A stretch of 63,555 bases of DNA from an uncultured Eubacteriales bacterium (GCA_964580435.1 CAZOKP010000005.1:5613-69167); one strand, 5' to 3'; counted from the stretch's first letter, positions 1 through 52,865 are shown. Notes: generated from the letters alone by a model not told the origin. Numbers and translations are program-made.

Positions 1-1893
1 GTCTCCGGCACGAAAGCCACAAAGACGAAGATCCTTGTCCTCGGGTTCGACGGCGTTGACCCTCGCCTTCTTCAGACCTGGATGAAAGAGGGCAAGCTCC
101 CGGCTTTCGAGCGCCTCATCGGCCAGGGTGATTTTCGCCGGCTCCGCACGAGCATTCCCCCGCAGAGTCCGGTGGCCTGGGCCAATTTTATCACCGGCAT
201 GAACCCCGGCGGCCATGGGATTTTTGACTTTATGCACCGGGATCCACAAACCTACTGGCCCGTCTTTTCCGGCTCAGCTACTGAAGAGGCCAAGTCGACT
301 CTCAAAATCGGAGACCTCGTCCTTCCGCTGCGCGGCGGAAAGGTTAAAAACCAAATCCAAGGAAAGGCCTTCTGGCAAATCCTGGATGAATATGATATCC
401 CCGCGACAATTTTTAAAATTCCGTCCAATTACCCGCCCGTCCCCACAAAATCGAGAACTCTATCGGGAATGGGGACGCCGGACCTCAAGGGGTCCTACGG
501 CATTTTCAACTTTTACACAACCCAGCCGCAAGAGATCAACCAGGACATCGGAGGCGGAAGGGTTCATCAGGTCTATGTGATCGGGAATAGAGTAGAAGCC
601 AAGCTCCCCGGCCCCACCAACACCTTTAGGAAAGAGAACCCTGAGGCGACGTTGGACTTTACGGTCTATATCGACCCGGTCAACCCTCTGGCCAAGGTTT
701 CCTGCCAAGGCCAGGAGTTCATCCTCAAGGAAAAGGAATGGAGCGGATGGAAACGCGTTCGTTTCAATCTCATCCCGACGCAGAGTGTTGCCGGCATCTG
801 TATGTTTTATCTCAAAGAGGTCCGGCCGAATTTCAAGCTCTACGTCACGCCCATCAATATCGACCCGGCCGACCCGGCCCTTCCGATTTCCACTCCCGGT
901 CGTTATGCCCAGGAGCTGGACAAGAAATTCGGCCCCTTTTTCACCAAGGGCCTCCCGGCGGACACGAGCGCTCTTGACCAGAACTTTCTGGATGAAGGCG
1001 AGTTTCTCGAGCAGGATGACATGATCTTCCGAGAAGGCGAAAGAATGTTTGATTATGAGTTATCCAGGTTCGACTCAGGACTCCTTTTTTACTATGTTTC
1101 CAGCACCGACCAGCGGCAGCATATGTTCTGGCGGCTGCTGGATGAGAAACATCCGAAGTATGACCCGAAGCTCGCTTCTCAATATGGCAAGACCATAGAA
1201 AATATTTACATCGCCGCCGACAAATGCCTAGACCGTAGCCTGCAAAACATAGACCGGGACACACTCCTTCTGGTCATGTCTGACCACGGTTTCAATCCTT
1301 ATCGCCGGTCCTTCAATCTCAACACCTGGCTTCTTGACAACGGCTACCACAAGCTGCGCAACCCCTGGAAACAGGAAGAAGGCAGCCTGTTTGAGAATAC
1401 CGACTGGTCAAGAACCAGGGCGTACGGAAGCGGGCTCAACGGACTTTATATCAACCAGCAAGGAAGAGAACGAGAAGGAATCGTCAACGCAGGTGCGGAT
1501 AGCGACAACCTCATCCGGGAATTGGCCCAGAAACTGGAGCAGGTTGTGGACCCAAAGACGGGCGAGCGGGCTATCCTGCGCGCGTTTGTGGCCAAGGATG
1601 TCTACCGCGGTCCGCAAGTCGGACACGCTCCTGACATCGTTCTCGGGTTCAACTGGGGATACCGCATCTCGAATGCCTCGCCCCTGGGAAGGTTCCCCAA
1701 GGACGTCCTTGAGGACAACACCAAGAAATGGAGCGGTGACCACATGGGCGCACCCGAGGTCATTCCGGGCATTCTGGTGACTAACCGCAAGATAAGGGCT
1801 GAATCCCCGGCTCTCTACGACCTGACCGCAACGATCCTTGATGTTTTCGGCATCGAGAAACCCAAGGACATGATCGGAGAAACCATATTTTAA
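1..1893 (+). CDS. Alkaline phosphatase superfamily protein (type I phosphodiesterase/nucleotide pyrophosphatase-like), 5'-partial
   Basis: Frame is open from base 1 (VSGTKATKTKILVLGFDGVDP), so it starts upstream of the window; metal/nucleophile motifs GFDG, PPQSPVAW, MSDHGF, WSGDH. Confidence 0.85.
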   Translation, partial: VSGTKATKTKILVLGFDGVDPRLLQTWMKEGKLPAFERLIGQGDFRRLRTSIPPQSPVAWANFITGMNPGGHGIFDFMHRDPQTYWPVFSGSATEEAKSTLKIGDLVLPLRGGKVKNQIQGKAFWQILDEYDIPATIFKIPSNYPPVPTKSRTLSGMGTPDLKGSYGIFNFYTTQPQEINQDIGGGRVHQVYVIGNRVEAKLPGPTNTFRKENPEATLDFTVYIDPVNPLAKVSCQGQEFILKEKEWSGWKRVRFNLIPTQSVAGICMFYLKEVRPNFKLYVTPINIDPADPALPISTPGRYAQELDKKFGPFFTKGLPADTSALDQNFLDEGEFLEQDDMIFREGERMFDYELSRFDSGLLFYYVSSTDQRQHMFWRLLDEKHPKYDPKLASQYGKTIENIYIAADKCLDRSLQNIDRDTLLLVMSDHGFNPYRRSFNLNTWLLDNGYHKLRNPWKQEEGSLFENTDWSRTRAYGSGLNGLYINQQGREREGIVNAGADSDNLIRELAQKLEQVVDPKTGERAILRAFVAKDVYRGPQVGHAPDIVLGFNWGYRISNASPLGRFPKDVLEDNTKKWSGDHMGAPEVIPGILVTNRKIRAESPALYDLTATILDVFGIEKPKDMIGETIF

Positions 1894-8981: not shown

Positions 8982-9974
8982 ATGAAGAAATTCACAGCTA
9001 TTGGTCTATCTGTTCTTTTCGCCTTGTTCTTCGTGGCCTCGTGCGCCAAAAAACCGGCTGCACCTAAAGCCGGCGCGGCTAAGGCAAATGATATGCTTTC
9101 TCTTCTCCCCAAGGAATCAGCCGGCGTGATCGTCATCGATGTTAACCGGATCATGACGACGGAATCGGTTGACAAAGCGATCAAGGAAAATAAGGACTAT
9201 CAGAAATACCAGGAATTTGTCCAGGAGACGGGCATCGACCCGCAGAAAGATGTCTTTTTCTTTGTCGGGGCCATGACCGGAGATTTGAGTCAAGGGGCCA
9301 AAGACGGGGTGGCCGTCGTCAACCTCAAATACGACAAAGATAAGCTTCTGGCCAAGATCCAAAAGGAGCGCGGCGAGCTGGCCAAGGCAGAGTACAACGG
9401 ATTCACCATCTACCAGGCGGCCGGGGCCGGCGAGCAAAAACCGGTGAGCGGCGCGTTCCTGGATGATTCCAACATCATCTTCGGCACCGATTCTGCGGTC
9501 AAGAGAGTCATCGATGTCTACCAAAAAAAGGCCGAAAACATCTGGAAGAGCGCATCGCTTCCAGCCTTGCTGAAGGGCATGAACACAGATGCCATGGTCT
9601 GGGGTGGCTTTGCCGTTCCGGCAGAGGCCCTGAAAAAGGCCGCCTCGCAAAACCCGATGCTGGGCGCTTTTGCGGATATCCAGTCCATCATCATTTCCTT
9701 TGATTACAAGAACCAGAACGTCCTGGCTGAGATCAAGGCCATGTGCCCGGACGAGGCCAAAACCAAGAAGATGGCCGATGCGCTTAACGGGTTCAAGGCC
9801 TTGGGAGCGGGAGTCGCCGCAAAAGAGCCGCTGGTCGGTGAGCTCTTGAACAAGATCGAGATCAGCTCGTCGGCCGATCATGTCAAGATCAATGCCAGCA
9901 TACCCGAGGAGCTTATCAAGAGTCTCAGCGAGAAAGTGAAAGTTGAGAAACCCCAGCCCGAGGGCCAGAATTAG
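8982..9974 (+). CDS. Hypothetical lipoprotein
   Basis: AGGAG RBS; signal peptide II with lipobox VASC; no family recognised. Confidence 0.75.
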   Translation: MKKFTAIGLSVLFALFFVASCAKKPAAPKAGAAKANDMLSLLPKESAGVIVIDVNRIMTTESVDKAIKENKDYQKYQEFVQETGIDPQKDVFFFVGAMTGDLSQGAKDGVAVVNLKYDKDKLLAKIQKERGELAKAEYNGFTIYQAAGAGEQKPVSGAFLDDSNIIFGTDSAVKRVIDVYQKKAENIWKSASLPALLKGMNTDAMVWGGFAVPAEALKKAASQNPMLGAFADIQSIIISFDYKNQNVLAEIKAMCPDEAKTKKMADALNGFKALGAGVAAKEPLVGELLNKIEISSSADHVKINASIPEELIKSLSEKVKVEKPQPEGQN

Positions 9975-10759
9975 TCCTCAAGAACATAATCTTTAAGAGA
10001 AAAAAGTAGACAGGCCAGGCCCAAAAAAGCTGCCGTAACCAGGAAAAGAACGAGAAGGGCAATTGCCGGTTGAGTCGGCACCAGCCGGAAGGTCAAGAAG
10101 GAGAACCTCCCCGGAGAGGAAGAGGGCAGGAACGACTTGAGATAGTGGATAATCGCAAATCGCTGCGTCGACCCGGGAAAATACTGGATGACATTTTCCC
10201 AGCCAAAACTGAAGAGCAGCCCGAAAAAAATCGACCTTCTTAAAAAACTCCCGAAAAAAGTAAAAAACGCAGTGTACGCGATAATCCCCAAGGTTGAGAC
10301 GCCCCAATATCGGAACAGCGTCAGGTAGATGGAGCCGTCGAGAAGACGGCTGATGTTAAGAACGGCAAAGGAAAAAACCATGCCCAGGCTGACCATCCCG
10401 ATGACGATGACCGTATAAGCGGCGTACTTGCCCAAGACGATGGCTGATTTCGGAATCGGACGGGTGAGGAGATAAGTAAGGGTTTTGCCTTCCACCTCTT
10501 CGGAGCAGACCGATGTTCCATAAAAAAGAGCCAGGATCAGGATGATCAATTGAAGATAAAACAGCATGATGATGTTAGTGAAGAGGTAGAGGCCATCGAG
10601 AGAATGGCTCTCGGAAAAGACCTGGTTGAATTTGATGACCAGAGCCACGACCACTGGCAAGAAGCTCAACAGAAAAAAGAATTTTGTCCTCCTGGCCTTC
10701 TTACCCAGGGAAAAGAAAACCGAAAAAACGTGACCAAGAGTCTTGACATAATAACGCAT
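9971..10759 (-). CDS. ABC-2-type transporter permease
   Basis: About 6 TM; EEVEGKTLTYLLTRPIPKS motif; start re-called to MRYYVKT right after the ATPase stop. Confidence 0.85.
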   Translation of the reverse strand: MRYYVKTLGHVFSVFFSLGKKARRTKFFFLLSFLPVVVALVIKFNQVFSESHSLDGLYLFTNIIMLFYLQLIILILALFYGTSVCSEEVEGKTLTYLLTRPIPKSAIVLGKYAAYTVIVIGMVSLGMVFSFAVLNISRLLDGSIYLTLFRYWGVSTLGIIAYTAFFTFFGSFLRRSIFFGLLFSFGWENVIQYFPGSTQRFAIIHYLKSFLPSSSPGRFSFLTFRLVPTQPAIALLVLFLVTAAFLGLACLLFSLKDYVLED

Positions 10760-10760
10760 T

Positions 10761-11684
10761 CTATTTACCCACGAGATAATCGAACACGGCCTGCAGATTA
10801 TCATCGGCAGAAGTGATCTCTTCGACCTCAATCCTGTTCTTCACCAGAAGGGATTGAAGAAGGCCGAAGAATCTATCCCGATTATTCGTCTCGACCAAAA
10901 GCGCCCGCGAGTCCGGCCCAATATGAACTTTCAAAACATATTCCTCCCGCAAGACCAGGGCGGCAAGGCCGCGCGGGTCGGCACACTTGACCGAAACCAT
11001 ATGAGGGTGGCTCTCGATCAGGTCACGGATATAATGGATATCTCCCTTAGCGAAAATTTTGCCCTGATGAATCAGGATGATATTCTTGGTCAGGGCTTCG
11101 ATCTCGGGCAGCACATGGCTCGAGACGATAATGGTCTTCCCCTCTTTGAAGTCTTTGATCAGCCGGATGAGCTTGCGCTTTCCCAGCGGGTCCATTCCGC
11201 TCAAAGGCTCATCCAGGATGAGGATGTCCGGGTCGTGAGCGATCGCCTGGGCAAATTTGAGCCTCTGACGCATGCCGCGGCTGTAGGCTCTGATTAATCT
11301 TTTTTTATCTCCGACGAGCTCGACGATCTCCAGGGCCCGCTCCGCCCGGGATTGGATCTCCTCTGCAGAAAATTGCTGCAGCCTCAGAAGGCTGGTCAAG
11401 AATTCCCACCCAGTCATCTCCTCGTAGAAAGAGTCCTGCTCGGGGCAAAAACCGAGGCGCGAAAAAAGGGCATAGTTATTTCTAACCTTCTGCCCGTAAA
11501 TGGCGACTTGACCGATACTCGGCCTGATCTGGCCGGTCAGGAGCTTGAGGAAGGTCGATTTCCCGGCGCCGTTCGGTCCGAGAAGCCCGGTTATCCCAGG
11601 CTCGATCTGGAGGGTGACGTCGCTCAGCCCGAGGACATTGCCGTACCACTTGGACAGCTTGCTCGTTTCGATCACAGCGGTCAT
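10761..11684 (-). CDS. ABC transporter ATP-binding protein
   Basis: Walker A GPNGAGKS, signature YSRGMRQ, Walker B ILILDEP; start re-called to MTAVIE (ATGA overlap at 11681-11684). Confidence 0.92.
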   Translation of the reverse strand: MTAVIETSKLSKWYGNVLGLSDVTLQIEPGITGLLGPNGAGKSTFLKLLTGQIRPSIGQVAIYGQKVRNNYALFSRLGFCPEQDSFYEEMTGWEFLTSLLRLQQFSAEEIQSRAERALEIVELVGDKKRLIRAYSRGMRQRLKFAQAIAHDPDILILDEPLSGMDPLGKRKLIRLIKDFKEGKTIIVSSHVLPEIEALTKNIILIHQGKIFAKGDIHYIRDLIESHPHMVSVKCADPRGLAALVLREEYVLKVHIGPDSRALLVETNNRDRFFGLLQSLLVKNRIEVEEITSADDNLQAVFDYLVGK

Positions 11685-12553
11685 TTGATGACGTCCACTC
11701 CTTTGACTTTGCTTATCATCACTAAGTACGCCAGGAAACAGATCCCCAGCAAAATGAAGAACGACCAATACCAGGGAACAGCGTAGGCCGGTTTCATTTT
11801 AAAGATGAAGGCTCCGACCTGCTGAAGATTGGCTTTCACGGAAAGGAGAACAAAGCCCGGTTTTTTAAAATATTCGTAAAAGAAGCCAGAAAGGATGTCG
11901 GAAAAGATATACACGGCAAAGATCAGGATAGAGACATACCTCCTGTTCTTGCTCAACGCTGAAAGCAGGAGCGTATAAAAACAGAAAAACAAGGACACGA
12001 CCAAGGAATAGACGATGACGGAGACAATCAGCCAGGGATAAGAGGCGATAAACTGGAAGCTCCCGGAAAAGAGCAGCTTGAAGAGAATAAAAAGAAGCCC
12101 GGGAACAGCGGTCAGGAGAAGAAGGAAAAACAAGACGATTGCGCCTTTTCCGACCAGGTAGTCGCGCTTCTCCAGCGGCCTCGAGAAATACAGCTGGAGA
12201 GAATTGCCTTTGAGGTCATCGGAGATGAGGCCGGCCCCACTGACGACGAGGATCATGACCATTATGAAGAGAAGAAAATCACCCGTGAAATAGGTCTTGA
12301 AATAAGCCGGATTGACCTCGAGCAGCTTGGGCGTACCCCGGACCATATATTTGAAATCCTCGATTCTCTCGGAGACATAGATCCCCACAAGGAACACGAG
12401 AGCGGGTATAAAGGACCCGAAGTAAAGGAACTTGAAATATTTTTTCTTGAACGAGAGCTTGATGCCGAGCCAGGTGATCGGCCACCAGGCAAACTTCCTT
12501 TCTCTGAGCACGCCGTCCCAATGGATGTATCCTTTCTCCCTGATGGTCATCAA
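11681..12553 (-). CDS. ABC-2-type transporter permease
   Basis: Multiple TM; ISDDLKGNSLQLYFSRPL motif. Confidence 0.85.
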   Translation of the reverse strand: MMTIREKGYIHWDGVLRERKFAWWPITWLGIKLSFKKKYFKFLYFGSFIPALVFLVGIYVSERIEDFKYMVRGTPKLLEVNPAYFKTYFTGDFLLFIMVMILVVSGAGLISDDLKGNSLQLYFSRPLEKRDYLVGKGAIVLFFLLLLTAVPGLLFILFKLLFSGSFQFIASYPWLIVSVIVYSLVVSLFFCFYTLLLSALSKNRRYVSILIFAVYIFSDILSGFFYEYFKKPGFVLLSVKANLQQVGAFIFKMKPAYAVPWYWSFFILLGICFLAYLVMISKVKGVDVIK

Positions 12554-13461
12554 TCCACTCCAACCGCCTTGGCGAAAAGGTCCTCGAGGGAGGTTTGACT
12601 CCTGACGAACAGGCGGACCTGCACTTTCTCCTCTTCCGCCGCCTGGAAAAATTCGATGATTTCTCTGTCTGCCGGGATATATACCTTCAGCAGGTTGTCT
12701 TCGGTCTCTTCGACCTTGTAGCCTATGCTCCTCAATCTCTCAACAAAACCCTGTCCATCCCCTTTTATCCTCACTTCATAGAGCCTGAAGTGGAGCCGCT
12801 TGAGCTCGCTGATTTTTCCTTGGGCCGCCAGCCGCCCTTTGTTGAGAATCACCACATCCGAGCAGACGGATTCGATATCGGTGAGGATATGCGAGGAGAT
12901 CAGCACTTGAATGTCTTTCTTGGAAGAGATATCCGTGATCAGTTCGAGGATCTCTTTCCGGCCCTGCGGGTCCAGGTTGCTGGTCGGCTCATCAAGAAAG
13001 AGGAGCTTGGGATCATGGACGATGGCCTGGGCAAGCTTGAGCCTCTGCTTCATGCCGGCGGAATAGGTCTCCAACTGCCTGTACCGAGACTCCCCCAGCC
13101 CGACATAGAAAAGAACATCATGGGCTCTCTTCATGGCTTCTTGATGAGGCATCCCGGAAAGCTCTCCGAAATAAGCCGTGAAGGTTACTGCATCCATTCC
13201 GGGGATGAGACATTCGTCTTCAGGCATATAGCCGACGTGGCGTCGGATCTGCGGCTGCTCCAGCCGGATATCATAGCCGAGGACCCGCCCGCTCCCTTTC
13301 TGAGGGGCTAAAAAACCGAGAAGGAGGCGAAGTAGAGTGCTCTTGCCCGCGCCGTTGGGTCCGAGGAGCCCGACCGCGCCTTCGGAGAGTTCCAGAGTAA
13401 CGCCGTCCAGGGCTATGACTCGGCCGTAGCTGAAATGAATATCGTGGAGCTCGACGATCAT
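12550..13461 (-). CDS. ABC transporter ATP-binding protein
   Basis: GPNGAGKS, YSAGMKQ, LLFLDEP; start re-called to MIVELHDI. Confidence 0.92.
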   Translation of the reverse strand: MIVELHDIHFSYGRVIALDGVTLELSEGAVGLLGPNGAGKSTLLRLLLGFLAPQKGSGRVLGYDIRLEQPQIRRHVGYMPEDECLIPGMDAVTFTAYFGELSGMPHQEAMKRAHDVLFYVGLGESRYRQLETYSAGMKQRLKLAQAIVHDPKLLFLDEPTSNLDPQGRKEILELITDISSKKDIQVLISSHILTDIESVCSDVVILNKGRLAAQGKISELKRLHFRLYEVRIKGDGQGFVERLRSIGYKVEETEDNLLKVYIPADREIIEFFQAAEEEKVQVRLFVRSQTSLEDLFAKAVGVD

Positions 13462-13534
13462 CGTTCTCTGTCTCGGCCTCAATTCTCAAATACGAGGGTG
13501 AGGACAAAAAAGTTCAATCTTTCAAGGGAATGCA

Positions 13535-15139
13535 TCAACCCGAAATCTTCGTTCCCTCCCCATGCACGAGAGCCCGATACGCCTTTTCCACGCGATCCCA
13601 GTTCTCCTCCCTGTCAAGAGCCCAATAGCGGCCGAGGACGGTGACGGCTTCCCCGACTCCGAGCGTTTTGGCTGTCTCCTCGACCTTTTCCATGTAAATG
13701 GCCCCGCTTTCCGGCTTCTCCCCTCTCCGGCCGATGAAAGCATGAATGTAAACCTTTTTTAGTCCCACATTTTTGGCCAAGCGGAGGAGCGCAAAGAGAT
13801 GCCTGATCGTTCCATGAGAGCTATAATGAGAGACGATGCCCATGAGGTGAAGAGCCTTCTTGTCCCTTTTGGCTCCCTCCATGGCTGAGAGGAAAACAGG
13901 GTTGCGGAAAAAGCTTCCATCCTCGATGGACCGATCGATCTTCACCCGCTCAAGGAAGACGCGCCGCCCGGCGCCAAGATGGAGATGTCCGGCTTCCGAG
14001 TTTCCGACGGTGTGGGAAGGCATGCCCACCGCCTCTCCCGAGGCTCTGAGGAGTGAATGCGAAAAACAAGACCAGAGCCCGTCAAAATGAGGCGTCCGGG
14101 CTTCCAAGATGAGGTTGCCTTGGGTCTCTTCCTTCAATCCCCACCCGTCTAGGATAAGAAGGGCAACTCGCTGTCTCGTTCTTGACGGTCGAGGCCGGCC
14201 GAGGATTAGACTCTCGCCTGTCATTTCCTCCGGCTTCCCCATGTTCAGCAAGTCAAGGACCGTCGGCGCCACGTCGGCAAGCTCCCCTGTTTCTTTGAGA
14301 ACCCAGGCCTCTGGGCGTTCTCTGGATAGATCGGCCAGGATAAAAGGGACCGGATTTTTGGTGTGACCCGTATTGACCGTGCCGTCGGGATAAAGCCACT
14401 CTTCGACGGTGCCGTGATCCGAAGTCACAATCAGAAATACTCCCTGCCTTCGGCACTCTTCAATGATCGCGCCCAGCGCGGAATCTACCGTTTCCACAGC
14501 TTTTAGGACTGCCGGTTTATCCTCACTATGGCCGACCACATCAACATTGGCGAGATTCGCGATGATGACAGAGTAAGAACGATCTTGAAGTTTTCGCCTC
14601 ACGTCCTGAGCCACTAGAGCGGCGCTCATTTCCGGCTTTTGAGCATAAGAGGCGACGTCTTGAGGCGAAGGAACAACGAACCTCTCTTCGCCGGGAAAGA
14701 CCTGGTCGCTTTTGCCGTTGAGAAAATAGCCCACGTGCACGGCTTTTTCCGACTCCGAGATTTTCGCCAGGCGCAAGCCTTGCCGGCTGATGACTTCAGT
14801 GAGCGTATTTTTAATTTTTTCTTCCGGAGGGAAGGCCGTTTTGGCCCTGAGCATCGGGTCATAGGTGATCATGGTCACGAAATGCAGATGGAGATCCTTT
14901 TGGCGCGAAAAATGGCTAAAGTCATCTTCGGTCAAGCTCTGTGTCAGCTCGATCTCTCTCTCGCCGCGGATATCATAAAAAATAACATAATCTCCGTCGC
15001 TGAGCCTTCCTCTGGGCCTGCCCGTAGGGTCGGCCTTAATAAGCGGTTCCAGGGCCTCATCCTCTTGGCCCCTTGTGTAGGCTTCGCGTATGGCGTCAGC
15101 AAGCGAAAGATTCTTAACCTGAGCGGCCGTTTTCATCAT
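13535..15139 (-). CDS. gpmI: 2,3-bisphosphoglycerate-independent phosphoglycerate mutase, circularly permuted
   Basis: All iPGM motifs are present but the canonical C-terminal half (DIRGERE, EKAVHV, NVDVVGH, TSDHG, GHT, ADVAPT) precedes the canonical N-terminal half (LDGWG, GNSEAGH, GRYWALDR). Confidence 0.88.
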   Translation of the reverse strand: MMKTAAQVKNLSLADAIREAYTRGQEDEALEPLIKADPTGRPRGRLSDGDYVIFYDIRGEREIELTQSLTEDDFSHFSRQKDLHLHFVTMITYDPMLRAKTAFPPEEKIKNTLTEVISRQGLRLAKISESEKAVHVGYFLNGKSDQVFPGEERFVVPSPQDVASYAQKPEMSAALVAQDVRRKLQDRSYSVIIANLANVDVVGHSEDKPAVLKAVETVDSALGAIIEECRRQGVFLIVTSDHGTVEEWLYPDGTVNTGHTKNPVPFILADLSRERPEAWVLKETGELADVAPTVLDLLNMGKPEEMTGESLILGRPRPSRTRQRVALLILDGWGLKEETQGNLILEARTPHFDGLWSCFSHSLLRASGEAVGMPSHTVGNSEAGHLHLGAGRRVFLERVKIDRSIEDGSFFRNPVFLSAMEGAKRDKKALHLMGIVSHYSSHGTIRHLFALLRLAKNVGLKKVYIHAFIGRRGEKPESGAIYMEKVEETAKTLGVGEAVTVLGRYWALDREENWDRVEKAYRALVHGEGTKISG

Positions 15140-15199
15140 GGCTATGTCCCAAAGAGAAGTTATAATATAAGAAGCGAGCAAAAGCATGTCAATGGGGGT

Positions 15200-15540
15200 G
15201 CTTGGGGTATGGGCTCGAATGCAGGCGAGTGTGCTCCCAGCCCGGTGTGGGTCCTGTCAGGGCGCGTCCCCGTAAAGGCTCGGGCTCTGGGATTCGTCAG
15301 CACGCTGATTTTCCCCAGCGAGAAAAATCAGCTCCGACTCATCCTTCGCTCTTCTCTCTTGCGGAGAGAAACCCTGCCCGCTCAGTCTTCGACGGGCTTC
15401 CTCACCCAAACCCTTCGTCTTGTCTTTCTTGGTTGAGTTGCGGGCGGTCCAGGGACTAACGCCGTGCCACCCACACCTCAATACTCGCGCATACGAGAAT
15501 TGTTCGTCCAACCCCTCGCATCGAAATAAGGAAGGGGATG
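15200..15540. other. Unassigned intergenic element with several hairpins
   Basis: About 450 bp between divergent gpmI and S9 peptidase; 9-bp stem GCTGATTTT/AAAATCAGC at 15304-15332 plus smaller stems. Confidence 0.3.
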
Positions 15541-15640
15541 AGCGGCTGCCTCCATATCTTTCTCAAAGGTAGGAATTCTCTTGACGACCGAACAGCATCC
15601 GAATAAATTAGCAGGGAAAGCATCCGAGAAAGGAGAAGTC

Positions 15641-17683
15641 ATGAAAAGAATTTGGCGGCTGATTGTGGTCTTTGTGCCGTTCTCTCTCATGCTCACAGGA
15701 GTGGCGTCAGCAGCCCGGACCAGGGCCATCACGTTTGACGACTTCCTCAACATCAAGCGCGTGAGCGATCCCCAGCTCTCTCCTGATGGAAAGCATATCG
15801 CCTTCGTCGTCACGGTGATAGAAAAGGAAGCCAACCGCGGGGACAGCGACATCTGGATCGTCCCATCAAGCGGTGGCGAAATCCGCCGCCTCACGTCAAG
15901 CCCGAAAGCGGACTTCAACCCGCGCTGGTCTCCCGACGCGAAAAAGATTGCTTTCATCTCCGCGAGGAACGGAACTCCCCAGGTTTTTTTGATCGACCTC
16001 GCCGGGGGGGAGGCTCAGCCGCTTACAGATATCTCTACAGGAGCCTCCGGGGTTATTTGGTCTCCAGCAGGCAAAGATCTCGCTTTTATCTCAGCGGTCT
16101 TCCCAGAATGTCCGGATGACGAATGCAATAGCAAAAAGAAGGAAGCAAGAGAGAAAAGTCCGGTCAAAGCCCAAACCTACGATCACCTTCTCTTCCGCCA
16201 CTGGAATGCCTGGACCGATGGGACAAGAAGCCACCTGTTCACGGTTCCTGCCCAGGGAGGAAAAGCGGTCGACCTCACGCCCGGCGATTATGACACTCCG
16301 CCCATCGCCTTGGAGGGCATGTCGGACTATGTCTTTTCACCCGACGGCGAGGAAGTCTGCTTTGTTCGAAACATGGACCCGGAACTCAAACTTGGGCTGG
16401 GCACAAACAATGACGTCTTCCTGACTTCTTCAAGGGGTGGCGAGATCAAAAAAATTACCGAAAACCGGGCCAACGATAACCAGCCCCTTTATTCGCCCGA
16501 CGGACGACATATCGCTTACAGGGCCATGTCCCGTGGCGGTTTCGAGGCCGACAGCTATTGTTTGATGCTCTACGACAGGAAATCCGGCCGGGCACGAAAT
16601 CTCACCGAAAACCTCGATTATTCCATCGGGGAAGTCGTCTGGGCCCCGGACAGCGCCTCGCTTTATTTCACTTCCGAGGACAAGGGACGCACGGCCCTGT
16701 TCAGGCTAGGTTTGGCCGGACCAAAAATTGAAAAAATTCTCGAAGGCCATTACCTTACCCACCCCTTCATCTCCCCCGACGGAAAAACTCTCTTTTTCCT
16801 CAAGCAGTCCATCCATCGCCCCGCCGATATCTACTCTTTCGACCTGGAGGGACCAGAGCTCTTGCAGCTCACCGATATCAACTGCGAGCTCCTGGTCAGG
16901 CTCGAGCTTCCGGGGGCCGAGGAGTTCTGGTTTGAAGGCGCGGCTAAGGACAAGGTTCATGGCTTTCTTCTCAAACCGCCTTTCTTCGACGCGGCCAAAA
17001 AATACCCTCTGGTTATGCTCATCCACGGCGGACCTCAGGGCGCATGGAGCGACAACTTCCACTTTCGCTGGAACGCCGAGATGTTCGCCGCTCCCGGGTA
17101 TGTCGTGGCCATGATTAATTTTCACGGCAGCACAGGTTACGGCCAGCGCTTTACGGACTCAATAAGCGGCGATTGGGGAGGAAAACCCTACAAGGACATT
17201 ATGCGTGGATTGGACCACCTCCTTGCTCAGTACGCTTTCATTGATAAAGACAGGCTCGCAGCCGCAGGCGCTTCCTATGGAGGCTACATGGTCGACTGGA
17301 TCGAGGGTCAGACCGACCGCTTCGATTGCCTCATCTCTCATTCAGGCGTCTTTGACCTCCGCTCCATGTACGGAGCGACCGAGGAGCTCTGGTTTCCTGA
17401 ATGGGAATTCAGAGGCACTCCCTGGACAAATCCCGAACAATACGCGCACTGGTCGCCCAGCAATTATGTTAAAAATTTCAAGACACCGTGCCTTGTCATC
17501 CACAGCGCTAATGATTTCCGGGTTCCGCTCACTCAAGGCCTGCAGTTCTTTTCTTCGCTCCAGCGGATGGGAATCCCGTCCAAATTGTTGTATTTCCCGG
17601 ACGAGGACCATTTTATCCAAAAGCCCCAAAACTCCGAGCTCTGGTGGAAAACGGTCTTGGATTGGCTCAAAACGTATCTGTAA
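15641..17683 (+). CDS. S9 family (prolyl oligopeptidase/acylaminoacyl-peptidase-like) exported peptidase
   Basis: Signal peptide after AGGAG RBS, beta-propeller SPDG repeats, GASYGG nucleophile, NDFRV Asp, DEDH His. Confidence 0.92.
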   Translation: MKRIWRLIVVFVPFSLMLTGVASAARTRAITFDDFLNIKRVSDPQLSPDGKHIAFVVTVIEKEANRGDSDIWIVPSSGGEIRRLTSSPKADFNPRWSPDAKKIAFISARNGTPQVFLIDLAGGEAQPLTDISTGASGVIWSPAGKDLAFISAVFPECPDDECNSKKKEAREKSPVKAQTYDHLLFRHWNAWTDGTRSHLFTVPAQGGKAVDLTPGDYDTPPIALEGMSDYVFSPDGEEVCFVRNMDPELKLGLGTNNDVFLTSSRGGEIKKITENRANDNQPLYSPDGRHIAYRAMSRGGFEADSYCLMLYDRKSGRARNLTENLDYSIGEVVWAPDSASLYFTSEDKGRTALFRLGLAGPKIEKILEGHYLTHPFISPDGKTLFFLKQSIHRPADIYSFDLEGPELLQLTDINCELLVRLELPGAEEFWFEGAAKDKVHGFLLKPPFFDAAKKYPLVMLIHGGPQGAWSDNFHFRWNAEMFAAPGYVVAMINFHGSTGYGQRFTDSISGDWGGKPYKDIMRGLDHLLAQYAFIDKDRLAAAGASYGGYMVDWIEGQTDRFDCLISHSGVFDLRSMYGATEELWFPEWEFRGTPWTNPEQYAHWSPSNYVKNFKTPCLVIHSANDFRVPLTQGLQFFSSLQRMGIPSKLLYFPDEDHFIQKPQNSELWWKTVLDWLKTYL

Positions 17684-48537: not shown

Positions 48538-51500
48538 ATGCCAATTCCTGACGACTATGTTCTGGAAGAGGAAGAACAGTCCTACCAGAGCGAGCCGGCC
48601 GCCCGAGAAAAGACGACGAAGAGGCTCGTCTCGGACCTGGCTCACGTCCAGATAGAAAAGGCCTATTTCGAAAAGCTGTTTGAAGACGCCCAGGAGGGCA
48701 TTATCATCGCAGATAGAGAAGGCCATGTCCTCAAAGTGAACGGGGAATTCAAAAGAATGTTCGGGTTTGAAAACGACGAAATCGTCGGCCAAACCATTGA
48801 TAAACTCATTGCTCCCCGGGATAACCTCAATGCCGCCGTTAACATAACCCAGCGCGTCGCCAGCGGCGAGAAAGTCTCCTTTGAAACGCTCCGCCGCAGG
48901 AAAGACGGCCGGTCCATCCAAGTTTCGGTCATCGCCTCTCCGATCATTGAGGAGGGAAAGTTACAGGCCATTTTTGGCATTTACAGGGATATTTCCGAGC
49001 AGAAAAAAATCCTGCAGGAGCTCAAGAACTCAGAGATGAGATTTCAGGATATTGCCCTCAGCTCGGCCGACTGGATCTGGGAAATCGACAGGAACGGGAG
49101 GTATATTTTCGCTTCCGGCAGAGTCACACAGATCCTCGGGTACGACCGCGAAGAAATCCTCGGCAAGACGCCGTTTGACCTGATGCCCAAAACAGAAGCG
49201 GAGCGAGTCCGACATTTCTTTCAGGAAATCATGGCCGCAAAAAAGCCGGTCGTCGACCTGGAAAACTGGAACCTCACCCGGGATGGGAAATTGGTCTGCT
49301 TGCTGACGAACGCCCTGCCAATACTCGACGAAAAAAGCGGGCTTCTGGGCTACCGCGGCATGGACAAGGACATCACGGAAAGGAAGCGCACAGAAACGCA
49401 AATCTTAAGACAGAACCTTCTTTTGGACGGCATCAACAGGCTCCTGCAAAAAGTCTTTACGAAAGAGACGGATGCTGATTTGGCCGAGTTCTGTCTCCAC
49501 CTGGCTGAAGAACTCACGGGGAGCAAGTACGGATTCATCGGCGAGATCAATGACCAGAATAACCTGGATATTATCTCCATGAGTCACTTTGCCTGGGACG
49601 CCTGCACAATTCCCAAATCCAACGCGCCCCTGCTTCTGAAGAACATGAGAATCCGAGGAATATGGAGTGAGGCCATCAAATATGGCGAGACCCAGCTCAT
49701 CAACGCCCCGGATTCGCACCCGAGCCGGGTCGGATTTCCCAAAGGACATCCCACTCTTCAAACTCTACTCTGCGCGCCTCTGAAACATGCCGGTCATATT
49801 GTCGGCGTCATAGCCCTGGCCAACAAAGAATTCGGTTATGACAGGGATGATGAAAAGGCCGTAGAAGCTCTGGCGACGGCCTTCGTCGAGGCTCTGTACC
49901 GCAAAAGAGCTGAAGCGGCGATCCAGAGAGAGACGGCCAAGCTCTCGGCGATCATCACCGGAATTGACGAGGGGGTTCTTTTTGCAGACCAGGATGACAG
50001 GATCATCGAAATTAATGATTACTTTCTCAGACTCTTGGGGAAGAATAAACCGGAGATCCTGGGCAAGACTCTCTGGGACATCTATGTCGGAAAGCCGGAG
50101 GAAGACCTGAAAAAATATGTCGAGATCTTCAAGAAGGATTCGGGGGCTCCCCCCGTCGAAATTCAGAAAACCTTGGGCGAGAAAGAAGTCATTTTCAGGA
50201 TCAAGCCCATCCGCCGCAATGATCAATACGAAGGTCTTATCCTCAACGTGGCGGATGTTTCCGAACTCGTCCGGGCGCGCATAGAGGCCCTGACCGCCAA
50301 CAGAGTCAAAAGCGAGTTCTTGGCGAATATCAGCCACGAAATCCGCACCCCGATGAACGGGATTTTGGGCATGACCGACCTGGCCCTCGACACCCAGCTG
50401 ACTCCTGAGCAGAAAGAGTACTTGGGGGGGATCAAATCCTCGGCAGAGTCCCTGTTGAGCTTGATCAACGATATCCTTGATTTTTCCAAGATTGAAGCCA
50501 AAAAGCTCGAGCTGGAATCGACCGTCTTCAGCCTGGAAGACCTTCTCTTCGAGACCTTGGCCCCTCTCTCCATCCAGGCCCATCGAAACAAGCTCGACTT
50601 GGCCTGCGAGATCTCTCCGAGTCTGGATCCCGACCTCCTCGGCGACCCCGGCCGGCTCCGTCAGATCCTGGTCAACCTTATCGGCAACGCCATCAAATTC
50701 ACAGAAAAAGGCGCCGTGGTTGTCACGGTCGCTGAATCGACCCGGTCGGAGAAGGACGTCGTCCTCCATTTTACCATCGCCGACACGGGAATCGGCATTC
50801 CTGAGGAGAAGCAGAAGATCATTTTTGATGTCTTCGCCCAGGCCGACAGCTCCATGACCCGAAAATACGGCGGCACGGGCCTCGGTCTGGCGATTTCCTC
50901 CCAGTTGGTCGACCTGCTTGGCGGCAAAATTTGGGTGGAGAGCACGGTAGGAAAAGGCAGCAAGTTCCACTTCACCGCTCGCTTCGGAGTTCTCCAAGAC
51001 TCTGACGAGAGGAGAATAGCGCAGCCAAAACTCACCTTCATGAATCTGCCTCTTTTCTTGGTGGAGGATAACGCGAGCTGCCGGCGCATCCTCAGGGAAT
51101 TGACATCCGGCTGGGGTGCGAAAGTGAAAGAGGCCGAAAGCGCCGACGAAGCGACCGTCCTGCTCGATGAAGCTAAGGAAAAGAAAAAGCCTTTTCCTCT
51201 CATCCTTTTGGATGCCAATCTCCCGGGGCACGACAGTTTCATCATCCTCGATTACATCAAGAACAATCCGGATATCGCCAAGGCCATCATCATGATGATG
51301 GGCACAACGAGCAACCGCATTGACGCCACACCCTGGCTGAAGGTCGGGATTTCTGTTCACCTGAGCAAACCCATTAAGCCGACCGAGCTCAATAATAAGA
51401 TCTCCCAGGTGCTCGGGCTGGCTGCCACGTTCCCCAAGCCTGCGGAGGCGCCTGTTCCCGTAATCGCTGAGCCTGTCGCCCCTCAGGTTGAGCAGCGCCC

Positions 51501-51936
51501 GACCACATATCGCGTTCTTATCGCGGAAGACAATTTGGTCAATCAAAAGGTCGCTATCTACATGCTTGAAAAACAAGGCCATTCCGTAACAGGAGTGATG
51601 AATGGAGAAGAAACTCTGGCTGCGCTGGAGAAGGGGAATTTTGAGCTTATTCTGATGGACCTCCAGATGCCTAAAATGGACGGTTTTAAAGCCACCCAGT
51701 TGATCCGCCAGAAAGAAAAGGAAACAGGTCTTCACCTCCCGATCATTGCCATGACCGCGCACGCCATGAAAGGAGACCGCGAAAGATGCCTGCGCGCGGG
51801 AATGGATGAATATATCTCTAAGCCCCTGAACGTCAAGCAACTCGCTGACACGATCGCCCGGGTTATGAATAATGAGGTCCAGGGCCACGAGGAACCCCCG
51901 GGAACAGCGGAGGTAGCTGGTAAAAGAAGACAATGA
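48538..51936 (+). CDS. Cytoplasmic hybrid sensor histidine kinase (PAS-PAS-GAF-PAS-HisKA-HATPase-REC-REC)
   Basis: H-box FLANISHEIRTPMNG, N/G/F boxes, receiver Asp in LILLD and LILMD; no TM segment. Confidence 0.95.
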   Translation: MPIPDDYVLEEEEQSYQSEPAAREKTTKRLVSDLAHVQIEKAYFEKLFEDAQEGIIIADREGHVLKVNGEFKRMFGFENDEIVGQTIDKLIAPRDNLNAAVNITQRVASGEKVSFETLRRRKDGRSIQVSVIASPIIEEGKLQAIFGIYRDISEQKKILQELKNSEMRFQDIALSSADWIWEIDRNGRYIFASGRVTQILGYDREEILGKTPFDLMPKTEAERVRHFFQEIMAAKKPVVDLENWNLTRDGKLVCLLTNALPILDEKSGLLGYRGMDKDITERKRTETQILRQNLLLDGINRLLQKVFTKETDADLAEFCLHLAEELTGSKYGFIGEINDQNNLDIISMSHFAWDACTIPKSNAPLLLKNMRIRGIWSEAIKYGETQLINAPDSHPSRVGFPKGHPTLQTLLCAPLKHAGHIVGVIALANKEFGYDRDDEKAVEALATAFVEALYRKRAEAAIQRETAKLSAIITGIDEGVLFADQDDRIIEINDYFLRLLGKNKPEILGKTLWDIYVGKPEEDLKKYVEIFKKDSGAPPVEIQKTLGEKEVIFRIKPIRRNDQYEGLILNVADVSELVRARIEALTANRVKSEFLANISHEIRTPMNGILGMTDLALDTQLTPEQKEYLGGIKSSAESLLSLINDILDFSKIEAKKLELESTVFSLEDLLFETLAPLSIQAHRNKLDLACEISPSLDPDLLGDPGRLRQILVNLIGNAIKFTEKGAVVVTVAESTRSEKDVVLHFTIADTGIGIPEEKQKIIFDVFAQADSSMTRKYGGTGLGLAISSQLVDLLGGKIWVESTVGKGSKFHFTARFGVLQDSDERRIAQPKLTFMNLPLFLVEDNASCRRILRELTSGWGAKVKEAESADEATVLLDEAKEKKKPFPLILLDANLPGHDSFIILDYIKNNPDIAKAIIMMMGTTSNRIDATPWLKVGISVHLSKPIKPTELNNKISQVLGLAATFPKPAEAPVPVIAEPVAPQVEQRPTTYRVLIAEDNLVNQKVAIYMLEKQGHSVTGVMNGEETLAALEKGNFELILMDLQMPKMDGFKATQLIRQKEKETGLHLPIIAMTAHAMKGDRERCLRAGMDEYISKPLNVKQLADTIARVMNNEVQGHEEPPGTAEVAGKRRQ

Positions 51937-52865
51937 AGATACTCATCGCTGAAGATGACCCCATCAGCAGCAAGATTTTGGGAAAAAACCTCTCGAACTG
52001 GGGCTACAATGTCAGCCTGGCCAAGACCGGCGAAGAAGCCTGGGGCGCTCTCAAGGATGAAGATTTGCGCCTAGCGATCCTAGACTGGATGATGCCGGGG
52101 ATGGACGGCGTGGACATCTGCAAGAAGATCCGCCGCCGGAAAAGGAAAAAATACACCTATATCATCCTTCTGAGCGCCAAAGACCGAAAACAGGACATCA
52201 TCGCCGGACTTTCCTCCGGCGCGGACGATTACATGACCAAGCCGGTAAATTTTCTCGAGCTGAGGGCGCGCCTGAGAACGGGCGAGCGCATCATCGACCT
52301 CGAAGATAAGCTGATTCTCATCCAGAATCAGCTTAAAGATATCGCCAGCAGGGACAGCTTGACCAAGCTCTGGAACCGGGGCGAAATTATCAAATTTCTG
52401 CGTGAGGAGCTCGAGCGAGGCAGCAGAGATAAAAACGCGGTCGGGGTCATCATGCTGGACCTGGACTATTTCAAAAAGATCAACGACATCTTTGGCCACG
52501 ATATCGGGGATGTCGCTCTCCTTCAGGTTGTCTCACGAATCAAAAGAAAAGTGCGCAAATCAGATAAGGTGGGCCGCTATGGAGGGGACGAAATCGTCGT
52601 CATCCTGCCCAATTGCCCCCAATCGGAATTGTTTGAAATCGGCGAGCGCTTGCGCCTGTCCGTCGCACGTCGAGCCATTAAAACTGACCTGGATACGATC
52701 CCCATAACCATTTCTGCCGGCTGCGCCTGCTCGGATGATGTTCCGCAGCCAACGGCTGAGAAGCTCATCAGGGCTTCTGATGAGGCACTTCTGACAGCCA
52801 AAAGCCAGGGGCGTAACTGCGTCATCGTAAATAACGCATCTCACAAAGGACAGAAAAATGTCTAA
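51933..52865 (+). CDS. Response regulator-diguanylate cyclase (REC-GGDEF, WspR/PleD-like)
   Basis: IAEDD, ILDWMMP, KP; DLDYFKKIND, I-site RKSD, active site GGDEI. Confidence 0.92.
   Translation: MKILIAEDDPISSKILGKNLSNWGYNVSLAKTGEEAWGALKDEDLRLAILDWMMPGMDGVDICKKIRRRKRKKYTYIILLSAKDRKQDIIAGLSSGADDYMTKPVNFLELRARLRTGERIIDLEDKLILIQNQLKDIASRDSLTKLWNRGEIIKFLREELERGSRDKNAVGVIMLDLDYFKKINDIFGHDIGDVALLQVVSRIKRKVRKSDKVGRYGGDEIVVILPNCPQSELFEIGERLRLSVARRAIKTDLDTIPITISAGCACSDDVPQPTAEKLIRASDEALLTAKSQGRNCVIVNNASHKGQKNV

What the first reader, a model, noticed from the sequence alone, without database searches (positions are those of the whole stretch)
13535..15139. Circularly permuted cofactor-independent phosphoglycerate mutase (GpmI)
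Seen: the single ORF begins with what is the middle of canonical iPGM (DAIREAY..EDE, DGDYVIFYDIRGERE), runs through the normal C-terminus (EEMTGESL), then a short linker (GRPRPSRTRQR, about 14205-14170) leads into the normal N-terminus (VALLILDGWG, Asp at 14147-14149) and ends after NWDRVEKAYRALVHGEG. Established: in Bacillus iPGM both termini lie in the phosphatase domain and the transferase domain is an insertion, so joining the termini and cutting in the transferase domain is structurally plausible. The phospho-Ser (GNSEAGH) and metal ligands are intact, but DGRD becomes IGRR and GGVHSH becomes YSSHGT, which hints at altered substrate contacts. I know of no described permuted GpmI.
Basis: partly seen in the sequence, partly recalled or inferred. 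Interest (0 to 1): 0.85.

Follow-up and report, generated by a model that had tools for sequence, protein, structure and literature searches.

The report
Circularly permuted iPGM, conserved in Aminicenantes
This gene encodes a glycolytic enzyme (cofactor-independent phosphoglycerate mutase) whose two halves are in swapped order; the rearrangement is real, is under purifying selection and is shared by hundreds of uncultured bacteria, and I found no paper describing it, though whether it still performs the standard reaction is untested.

Summary
The ORF at 13535-15139 (-), 534 aa, matches Geobacillus stearothermophilus iPGM in two swapped blocks: aa 15-313 match iPGM 218-510 and aa 322-530 match iPGM 3-211, joined by a linker of about 8 residues. 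Pfam shows the inverted nesting iPGM_N / Metalloenzyme / iPGM_N.

It is not an assembly artefact. Ninety independent loci, five of them complete Aminicenantes chromosomes, carry the same order in a single colinear match. 394 GTDB species genomes hit. dN/dS is about 0.11-0.13, and synteny is conserved.

The permuted order also occurs in Ca. Desulfofervidus, Limnochordia and a Pseudomonadota MAG. Fifteen permuted representatives form a clade with 198/200 bootstrap support. That clade has its own active-site signature: GGVHS becomes xSSHG, Asp154 is lost, and NFRPDR becomes xxRGER.

The Ser nucleophile, all metal ligands and the Arg/Lys/His substrate binders are invariant. The AlphaFold2 model is confident (pLDDT 87) and superposes on closed iPGM.

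Most likely this is an active iPGM with inverted domain nesting. A changed substrate cannot be excluded. Five literature searches found no description of a permuted iPGM. I rate it a new variant of a known kind, of moderate to high interest.

The parts
15164..15192 (-). Sigma-70-like promoter (TTGACA, 17 nt, TATATT) upstream of the true start codon
   Evidence: It matches 11 of 12 consensus positions. It overlaps the upstream in-frame ATG at 15187, so translation most likely starts at 15139. A consensus match only; not shown to be functional.
13535..15139 (-). Complete CDS of the permuted iPGM (534 aa plus stop codon)
   Evidence: An identical 534-aa protein is in the database (P0001). Homologues at 64-88% identity cover 97-100% of it.
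14819..15139 (-). aa 1-107: second part of the transferase domain (about iPGM 218-310), now at the N-terminus. Carries the Arg261/Arg264 equivalents R58 and R61.
   Evidence: aa 7-94 match iPGM_N profile 130-216. One search gives the alignment. R58 and R61 are invariant.
14201..14818 (-). aa 108-313: phosphatase domain, the part that is C-terminal in canonical iPGM (about 311-510). Carries K132 (Lys336) and the metal ligands D200/H204, D241/H242 and H259.
   Evidence: Metalloenzyme profile 68-250. The residues are invariant in A1 and A2.
14177..14200 (-). aa 314-321 (GRPRPSRT): linker joining the old C-terminus to the old N-terminus
   Evidence: This stretch is unaligned between the two 1ejj blocks. 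Its sequence varies but its length is similar in all permuted homologues. pLDDT dips to about 71 here.
13955..14176 (-). aa 322-395: phosphatase domain, the part that is N-terminal in canonical iPGM (about 3-76). Carries D331 (Asp12; 14147-14149) and the nucleophile S381 (Ser62; 13997-13999) in the GNSEAGH motif.
13538..13954 (-). aa 396-534: first part of the transferase domain (about iPGM 77-211), now at the C-terminus. Carries SHYSSHG (H442 = His123), GRRG (R471 = Arg153; Asp154 is replaced by Gly), R504 (Arg185) and R510 (Arg191).
   Evidence: aa 401-531 match iPGM_N profile 1-131.
12550..13482 (-). DrrA-like ABC ATPase gene directly downstream, the first gene of an ABC-2 transporter cluster. 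It is a conserved neighbour. A functional link is not shown.
   Evidence: Pfam hits. It sits on the same strand within 400 nt in 67 of 69 Aminicenantes loci. No terminator-like site lies between the two genes.

Best explanation
The gene encodes a naturally circularly permuted cofactor-independent phosphoglycerate mutase.

Shown: the ancestral N- and C-termini, both in the alkaline-phosphatase-like domain, are fused through a loop of about 8 residues. The chain now begins and ends in a surface loop of the phosphotransferase domain, at iPGM residues about 211/218. The nesting is therefore inverted. The phosphatase domain is one contiguous insert (aa about 108-395) between two pieces of the transferase domain (aa 1-107 and 396-534).

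Inferred: both inter-domain hinge crossings are retained.

Inferred mechanism, the usual iPGM cycle: 3-phosphoglycerate binds in the inter-domain cleft and the domains close. The phosphate moves to Ser381 at the two-metal centre (D331, S381, D200, H204, D241, H242, H259). Glycerate is held by H442, R471, R504, R510, R58, R61 and K132 while it reorients. It is then re-phosphorylated at the other hydroxyl.

Inferred origin: tandem duplication, in-frame fusion and trimming of both ends. This happened before the radiation of Aminicenantes, because the same breakpoints occur in several phyla.
For: Permutation: there are two swapped homology blocks to 1ejj, each at about 1e-62. Pfam nesting is inverted. 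TIGR01307 scores 495 bits against a cut-off of 331.

Real and selected: more than 120 full-length homologues come from independent assemblies. 394 GTDB species genomes hit; the best 80 are all Aminicenantes and include five complete chromosomes. All 91 sources give one colinear HSP, and the order is permuted relative to a canonical query. dN/dS is 0.11-0.13. Synteny is conserved.

Catalytic competence: the nucleophile, all metal ligands and H123/R185/R191/R261/R264/K336 are invariant in 39 Aminicenantes sequences and 14 diverse permuted sequences. 60 of the 78 positions that are at least 90% conserved in canonical iPGMs are retained.

Fold: the AlphaFold2 model has pLDDT 87.1 and pTM 0.85. The best Foldseek hits are the substrate-bound closed iPGM structures 1o99, 1ejj and 1o98, at E about 1e-20 and rmsd 2.6 A over 308 columns.

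Glycolytic link: a related permuted protein that keeps the canonical motifs overlaps pgi by 4 nt.

Two-hinge architecture of iPGM: PMC5382265.
Against: Activity is not tested.

The clade containing this protein has lost Asp154, which is 96% conserved in canonical iPGMs. It also differs at V122, M189, N259, D263, G409 and N447, all next to substrate or metal residues.

The equivalog model NF003897 scores 395 bits against a cut-off of 862.

The Aminicenantes gene is not next to glycolytic genes. It is next to an ABC-2 transporter cluster.

I could not check whether these genomes also carry a dPGM, an apgM or a canonical gpmI.

Foldseek aligns sequentially and therefore covers only about 58% of the model. 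I had no coordinates to check the full non-sequential superposition or the active-site geometry.
Confidence: 0.7

Rival explanations
1. A neofunctionalised iPGM-fold enzyme. On this view the core permuted clade (the SSHG / no-Asp154 signature) is a phosphomutase, phosphotransferase or phosphatase acting on a different small phospho-hydroxy-acid or phosphorylated metabolite. Housekeeping PGM activity would be supplied by another gene.
For: A clade-specific active-site signature is absent from all 126 canonical-order representatives examined. The genomic contexts are non-glycolytic and varied. Aminicenantes have an ABC-2 exporter downstream in 67 of 69 loci. There is an Afu/Fbp-like ABC importer operon (L089) and a GDPD plus importer (L088). 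Ca. Desulfofervidus has a 2401-aa PPDK_N protein overlapping the gene. Limnochordia have a phosphohexomutase next door. The four permuted representatives that keep the canonical motifs fall outside this clade.
Against: All residues that bind the phosphate and the carboxylate of phosphoglycerate are invariant. TIGR01307 is well above its cut-off. The gene appears single-copy and is present in at least 80, and up to 394, species genomes of the lineage, as expected for a housekeeping enzyme. No second PGM was seen in the window or in the flanks.
Confidence: 0.22
2. An assembly or gene-calling artefact, for example a collapsed tandem duplicate or a chimeric join, that only mimics a permuted gene.
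For: None was found. This is only the a-priori risk for metagenome-derived contigs.
Against: The same order, breakpoints and reading frame occur in 90 independently assembled loci from JGI, ENA, NCBI and Logan, including five complete chromosomes. Flanking synteny is conserved. There is purifying selection over the whole length. The single-chain model is confident.
Confidence: 0.01
3. A decaying or catalytically dead relic (pseudoenzyme) kept for a structural or regulatory role.
For: Asp154 is lost and there are several second-shell changes. NCBI often names these proteins 'hypothetical' or 'alkaline phosphatase family'.
Against: The nucleophile, all metal ligands and the substrate-binding Arg/Lys/His residues are invariant across more than 50 divergent sequences. 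dN/dS is about 0.1. There are no frameshifts or stops in 91 sources.
Confidence: 0.05

Closest known systems
Canonical cofactor-independent phosphoglycerate mutase (GpmI/GpmM; e.g. Geobacillus stearothermophilus iPGM, PDB 1ejj/1o98/1o99; TIGR01307; Pfam Metalloenzyme PF01676 + iPGM_N PF06415)
   Same: About 38-43% identity in each block. The two domains are the same. The Ser nucleophile, the two-metal ligand set and the Arg/Lys/His substrate binders are the same. The predicted structure resembles the closed conformation.
   Different: The chain order is circularly permuted, so the phosphatase domain is nested in the transferase domain instead of the reverse. Asp154 is replaced by Gly. GGVHSH is replaced by YSSHGT, NFRPDR by DIRGER, GHSG by GHSE, and DHGN by DHGT. 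The equivalog model NF003897 is far below its cut-off.
Other permuted iPGM homologues found here (Ca. Desulfofervidus auxilii UniRef A0A7C0Y5T5 cluster P0144; Limnochordia P0187/P0297; Pseudomonadota MAG P0172; unnamed P0132, P0141, P0179, P0216, P0232, P0237)
   Same: They share the breakpoints and the linker position. They share the SSHG / RGER / no-Asp154 signature. Together with the Aminicenantes proteins they form a clade with 198/200 bootstrap support.
   Different: They are only 36-46% identical to the window protein. Their gene neighbourhoods differ. The Aminicenantes branch uniquely has GRRG at positions 151-154.
Permuted iPGMs that keep the canonical active-site motifs (P0126, P0127, P0129, and the module inside the 5027-aa P0193)
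   Same: The same permuted order, with termini within a few residues of the same positions.
   Different: They retain GVHS, DGRD, NFRxDR and DHGN. They do not group robustly with the core clade: all permuted sequences are monophyletic in only 2 of 200 bootstraps. P0126 is co-operonic with pgi.
Classical natural circular permutants (e.g. eukaryotic versus bacterial glutathione synthetase, cited in PMC2876114)
   Same: Homologous enzymes whose sequence blocks are swapped while the fold and active site are kept. The usual explanation is duplication, fusion and trimming.
   Different: The fold and enzyme are different. Here the permutation also inverts which domain is the insert in a two-domain hinge enzyme. 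No duplication intermediate was found.

Membership tests
Cofactor-independent phosphoglycerate mutase (iPGM, GpmI) | Contains both the alkaline-phosphatase-like domain (Pfam Metalloenzyme) and the iPGM-specific transferase domain (Pfam iPGM_N) | tested here: met
   iPGM_N scores 198 bits and Metalloenzyme 197 bits.
Cofactor-independent phosphoglycerate mutase (iPGM, GpmI) | Scores above the curated cut-off of the family model | tested here: inconclusive
   TIGR01307 scores 495.4 bits against a cut-off of 330.65, so it is met. NF003897 scores 394.7 bits against a cut-off of 862, so it is not met, because the match is split in two.
Cofactor-independent phosphoglycerate mutase (iPGM, GpmI) | Phospho-serine nucleophile and binuclear metal ligands (Asp12, Ser62, Asp403, His407, Asp444, His445, His462 in 1ejj numbering) | tested here: met
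   All are present and invariant: D331, S381, D200, H204, D241, H242 and H259.
Cofactor-independent phosphoglycerate mutase (iPGM, GpmI) | Substrate-contact residues of the transferase domain and Lys336 (His123, Arg153, Asp154, Arg185, Arg191, Arg261, Arg264, Lys336). The list is recalled from the 1ejj literature and was not re-read here. | tested here: inconclusive
   Seven of the eight are conserved. Asp154, which is 96% conserved in canonical iPGMs, is Gly here and Gly or Ser in the core clade.
Cofactor-independent phosphoglycerate mutase (iPGM, GpmI) | Canonical chain topology: the transferase domain is inserted in the phosphatase domain, and both termini lie in the phosphatase domain | tested here: not met
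   The order is swapped relative to 1ejj and to the Pfam profiles. All PDB iPGMs have the canonical order.
Cofactor-independent phosphoglycerate mutase (iPGM, GpmI) | Catalyses 3PG/2PG interconversion without 2,3-BPG | not testable with these tools
   This needs an enzyme assay or complementation.
Cofactor-independent phosphoglycerate mutase (iPGM, GpmI) | Acts as the PGM of central metabolism: the only PGM in the genome, or linked to glycolytic genes | tested here: inconclusive
   No other PGM was found in the 63.5-kb window or in the flanks of 90 loci. Whole genomes could not be scanned. A basal permuted relative is co-operonic with pgi. The Aminicenantes gene is linked to an ABC-2 transporter.
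Natural circular permutant of a known protein family | Two homologous blocks in swapped order that cover the whole reference, with a short linker at the old termini and the new termini in a loop | tested here: met
   The blocks cover iPGM 218-510 and then 3-211. The linker is about 8 residues. The break is at iPGM_N profile position about 130/131.
Natural circular permutant of a known protein family | Found in independent genomes and under purifying selection, so not an artefact | tested here: met

The most novel reading that the evidence does not exclude
The core permuted clade (SSHG motif, Asp154 lost) is not a glycolytic PGM. It would instead be a previously unrecognised enzyme family built on the iPGM scaffold, with a changed substrate or reaction: for example a mutase or phosphotransferase for another phosphorylated hydroxy-acid, possibly tied to the adjacent transporters or to the PPDK_N giant proteins. 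On this view the permutation was the enabling step for the new function and for embedding the module in larger proteins.
Probability: 0.2. Interest if true: 0.75.

Novelty: new variant of a known kind. Interest (0 to 1): 0.58.

Why it matters
iPGM is a central glycolytic and gluconeogenic enzyme and a studied anti-parasite and antibacterial drug target. Its catalysis depends on hinge motion between two domains.

A natural version with inverted domain nesting, conserved across a class-level lineage and present in several phyla, is a ready-made experiment. It can show how chain connectivity affects folding, domain closure and catalysis.

It also exposes an annotation weakness. NCBI names these proteins variously 'hypothetical', 'alkaline phosphatase family', 'sulfatase-like' or PGM. 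Metabolic reconstructions of Aminicenantes, Limnochordia or Desulfofervidus may therefore miss or mislabel the PGM step.

If the clade-specific active-site changes reflect a new substrate, this would be a new enzyme family.

Tried and rejected
1. Mis-assembly is rejected.

2. The upstream start at 15187 is rejected. Homologues are about 534 aa, and the promoter-like -35 box overlaps that ATG.

3. I looked for duplication-fusion intermediates among the long hits (596-934 aa). Each has a single canonical iPGM plus unrelated extensions, so there are none.

4. I tested a single origin of all permuted forms with a neighbour-joining bootstrap on 'un-permuted' sequences. The core clade is robust (198/200). 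All 19 permuted sequences are monophyletic in only 2 of 200 replicates, so the question is unresolved. The method is a simple distance method; no maximum-likelihood tool was available. The first attempt timed out.

5. Rfam scan of the window: no hits, so no riboswitch or leader upstream.

6. Literature on the role of Asp154: the 1ejj papers were not retrievable. The residue roles are therefore from memory.

7. Aminicenantes metabolic papers gave no statement on PGM.

8. Co-occurrence with another PGM could not be tested.

9. Pfam annotation of about 50 ORFs in the window found no other glycolytic gene.

Full report
**1. What is in the sequence**

The region holds one long ORF on the minus strand, 13535..15187. 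The in-frame ATG at 15139 gives 534 aa. That is exactly the length of the identical database entry P0001 and of its homologues.

An 11/12 match to a sigma-70 promoter (TTGACA, 17 nt, TATATT; 15192..15164) overlaps the upstream ATG at 15187.

The window is about 52-54% G+C with no compositional break at the gene.

**2. The permutation is real at the sequence level**

Against the PDB sequences, the protein matches Geobacillus stearothermophilus iPGM (1ejj, 1o98, 1o99) in two blocks of about 213-215 bits each. In the 550-aa numbering, residues 338-546 align to iPGM 3-211 and residues 31-329 align to iPGM 218-510. Every other solved iPGM also matches in two swapped stretches.

TIGR01307 scores 495 bits (cut-off 331) in two stretches. 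The stricter equivalog model NF003897 reaches only 395 of 862 bits.

Pfam scans of sub-fragments make the topology explicit:
- aa 7-94 match iPGM_N profile positions 130-216.
- aa 108-395 match Metalloenzyme.
- aa 401-531 match iPGM_N profile positions 1-131.
- In the canonical relative P0123, iPGM_N (85-300) is nested in Metalloenzyme (10-501).

So the old termini, both in the phosphatase domain, are joined by aa 314-321 (GRPRPSRT; window 14177-14200). The chain is opened in the transferase domain between iPGM residues about 211 and 218.

iPGM is described as a phosphatase domain connected to a transferase domain by two hinge peptides (PMC5382265). The permutation keeps both crossings but inverts which domain is the insert.

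**3. It is not an artefact**

- A search of 5.8 billion proteins returned more than 120 full-length homologues (64-88% identity, 97-100% coverage, about 520-550 aa). They come from independent JGI, ENA, NCBI and Logan assemblies, and those with names are Candidatus Aminicenantes / Acidobacteriota.
- A scan of one genome per GTDB species found 394 genomes with a relative. The best 80 are all Aminicenantes. They include the complete chromosomes CP070825.1, OY969586.1, OY970261.1, OY969696.1 and OY970122.1, and Ca. Aminicenans sakinawicola.
- In all 90 fetched loci plus the window, tblastn with the permuted protein gives one colinear HSP. A canonical iPGM query gives two HSPs in permuted order. 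No locus has a second iPGM copy in its flanks.
- Nei-Gojobori dN/dS against the closest orthologues is 0.11 (L008) and 0.13 (L009).
- Synteny is conserved: KdtA, PAP2, (amidohydrolase), M23 peptidase, permuted iPGM, two ABC-2 ATPase/permease pairs, DUF3352. The DrrA-like ATPase lies directly downstream on the same strand in 67 of 69 loci. In the window an S9 peptidase (15581-17683, +) sits upstream, as it does in about 30 other loci.

**4. Distribution beyond Aminicenantes**

In an exhaustive HMMER search of 1.84 billion cluster representatives, most of the top 150 are canonical (two stretches). Fourteen are colinear with the query.

Named members belong to Ca. Desulfofervidus auxilii (UniRef A0A7C0Y5T5), a Pseudomonadota MAG, and Limnochordia. 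One Limnochordia sequence is seen on 254 contigs, one of them 2.5 Mb long. All share the same breakpoints and linker position.

I moved the C-terminal block to the front of each permuted sequence and aligned them with 126 canonical representatives. Neighbour-joining then gave these results:
- The Aminicenantes proteins plus nine other permuted representatives form a clade in 198 of 200 bootstraps.
- Four further permuted proteins (P0126, P0127, P0129, and a module inside the 5027-aa P0193) do not attach robustly.
- All permuted sequences are monophyletic in only 2 of 200 replicates.

One origin or several therefore remains open. No tandem-duplication intermediate was seen among the long hits.

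**5. Active site**

The following are invariant in 39 Aminicenantes sequences and in 14 diverse permuted sequences. Residue numbers in parentheses are 1ejj numbering.

| Role | Residues |
|---|---|
| Nucleophile | S381 (Ser62) |
| Metal ligands | D331 (Asp12), D200/H204 (Asp403/His407), D241/H242 (Asp444/His445), H259 (His462) |
| Substrate binders | H442 (His123), R504 (Arg185), R510 (Arg191), R58/R61 (Arg261/Arg264), K132 (Lys336) |

Of 78 positions that are at least 90% conserved in canonical iPGMs, 60 are kept in the core permuted clade.

The exceptions cluster next to catalytic residues:
- V122 becomes S.
- D154 becomes G or S.
- M189 becomes L.
- N259 becomes D, C or F.
- D263 becomes E.
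- G409 becomes E, P or A.
- N447 becomes T or L.

None of the 126 canonical-order representatives has this signature. The four 'basal' permuted proteins keep the canonical residues.

GGVHSH aligns to YSSHGT with His123 retained.

I recall that Asp154 contacts the glycerate moiety in 1ejj, but I could not retrieve the papers to confirm this. The functional meaning of its loss is unresolved.

**6. Structure**

AlphaFold2, run with the 39-sequence alignment, gives mean pLDDT 87.1 and pTM 0.85. Confidence dips at the extreme termini, at the linker (about 71) and in a few loops.

The best Foldseek hits in the PDB are the substrate-bound, closed iPGM structures 1o99, 1ejj and 1o98 (E about 1e-20, rmsd 2.4-2.7 A over 308 columns, TM about 0.52). 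About 58% coverage is what a sequential aligner is expected to give for a circular permutant. Open-form iPGMs fit worse.

I had no coordinates, so I could not do a non-sequential superposition.

**7. Function**

The best-supported reading is an active iPGM working by the normal phospho-serine, two-metal, domain-closure mechanism (confidence about 0.7). The evidence:
- The catalytic and substrate-binding set is intact.
- The TIGR01307 score is well above its cut-off.
- Selection is strongly purifying.
- The gene is apparently single-copy and lineage-wide.
- A basal permuted relative overlaps pgi by 4 nt.

The main rival (about 0.2) is a neofunctionalised enzyme. The evidence:
- The core clade has its own active-site signature.
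- The gene sits in non-glycolytic, variable contexts. Aminicenantes have an ABC-2 exporter downstream. L089 has an SBP / fused-permease / ATPase importer operon. L088 has a GDPD plus an importer. Limnochordia have a phosphohexomutase next door. In Ca. Desulfofervidus a 2401-aa PPDK_N protein overlaps the start of the gene.

No other PGM or glycolytic gene is in the window. I could not scan whole genomes, so co-occurrence with another PGM is the key untested point.

**8. Novelty**

Five full-text searches combining circular permutation or 'permuted' with iPGM or phosphoglycerate mutase found no description of a permuted iPGM. Neither did the survey of bacterial PGM evolution (PMC2964296) or a 338-sequence iPGM analysis (PMC12077085).

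The proteins are in public databases but are named inconsistently: hypothetical, alkaline phosphatase family, sulfatase-like, or PGM. Canonical ones are named uniformly.

Natural circular permutation is a known phenomenon. I therefore class this as a new variant of a known kind. It is real, widespread and experimentally attractive, but it is not a new principle unless the altered active site turns out to mean a new reaction.

Noticed in passing
P0193 (Logan contig, 15.6 kb), aa 3835-4373: A 5027-aa predicted protein contains a complete permuted iPGM module with canonical active-site motifs, embedded between long unrelated regions. Termini placed in the transferase domain may make the module easy to insert into larger proteins.
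   Followed up: partly
L006 and L007, 2839-10044 and 10001-11572: In Ca. Desulfofervidus auxilii contigs, the start of the permuted iPGM gene overlaps by 44 nt the end of a 2401-aa ORF with a PPDK_N (PEP-utilising, ATP-grasp) domain. This suggests translational coupling with a phosphotransfer protein of unknown role.
   Followed up: no
L090, 6556-8004 and 8001-9626: A permuted iPGM that keeps the canonical motifs (P0126) overlaps glucose-6-phosphate isomerase (pgi) by 4 nt. This is a glycolytic operon context for a permuted form.
   Followed up: partly
window 9971-13482 (-), and L008-L087: Two ABC-2 ATPase/permease pairs follow the iPGM gene on the same strand. The first ATPase is directly downstream in 67 of 69 Aminicenantes loci, and no terminator-like site lies between the genes in the window. 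They may form an operon of unknown logic.
   Followed up: partly
L046 and L077 (MAG PFL55, JALHUR01): One MAG carries two permuted iPGM genes that are only 66.6% identical. They are either paralogues or the bin mixes two Aminicenantes species.
   Followed up: partly
L088 (6337-13160) and L089 (4146-9419): In two unrelated core-clade members, the permuted iPGM sits beside an ABC importer with a fused double permease and a periplasmic binding protein (Afu/Fbp-like architecture). In L089 it is the last gene of that operon. In L088 a GDPD phosphodiesterase lies between them.
   Followed up: no
window 15193-15580: An intergenic region of about 390 nt lies between the divergently transcribed iPGM and S9 peptidase genes. 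There is no Rfam match. Only short ORFs without support are present.
   Followed up: partly
window 82-1893 (+): A 603-aa protein of the Phosphodiest (nucleotide pyrophosphatase/phosphodiesterase) family. It is another alkaline-phosphatase-superfamily member in the same window and is unrelated to the finding.
   Followed up: no
window 48538-52865 (+): A 1132-aa hybrid sensor kinase (multiple PAS domains, GAF, HisKA, HATPase, two receiver domains) is followed immediately by a receiver-GGDEF diguanylate cyclase.
   Followed up: no
database names: NCBI and PGAP names for permuted iPGMs vary: hypothetical protein, alkaline phosphatase family protein, sulfatase-like hydrolase/transferase, phosphoglycerate mutase. 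Canonical iPGMs are named uniformly. This is a likely source of gaps in pathway reconstructions.
   Followed up: partly
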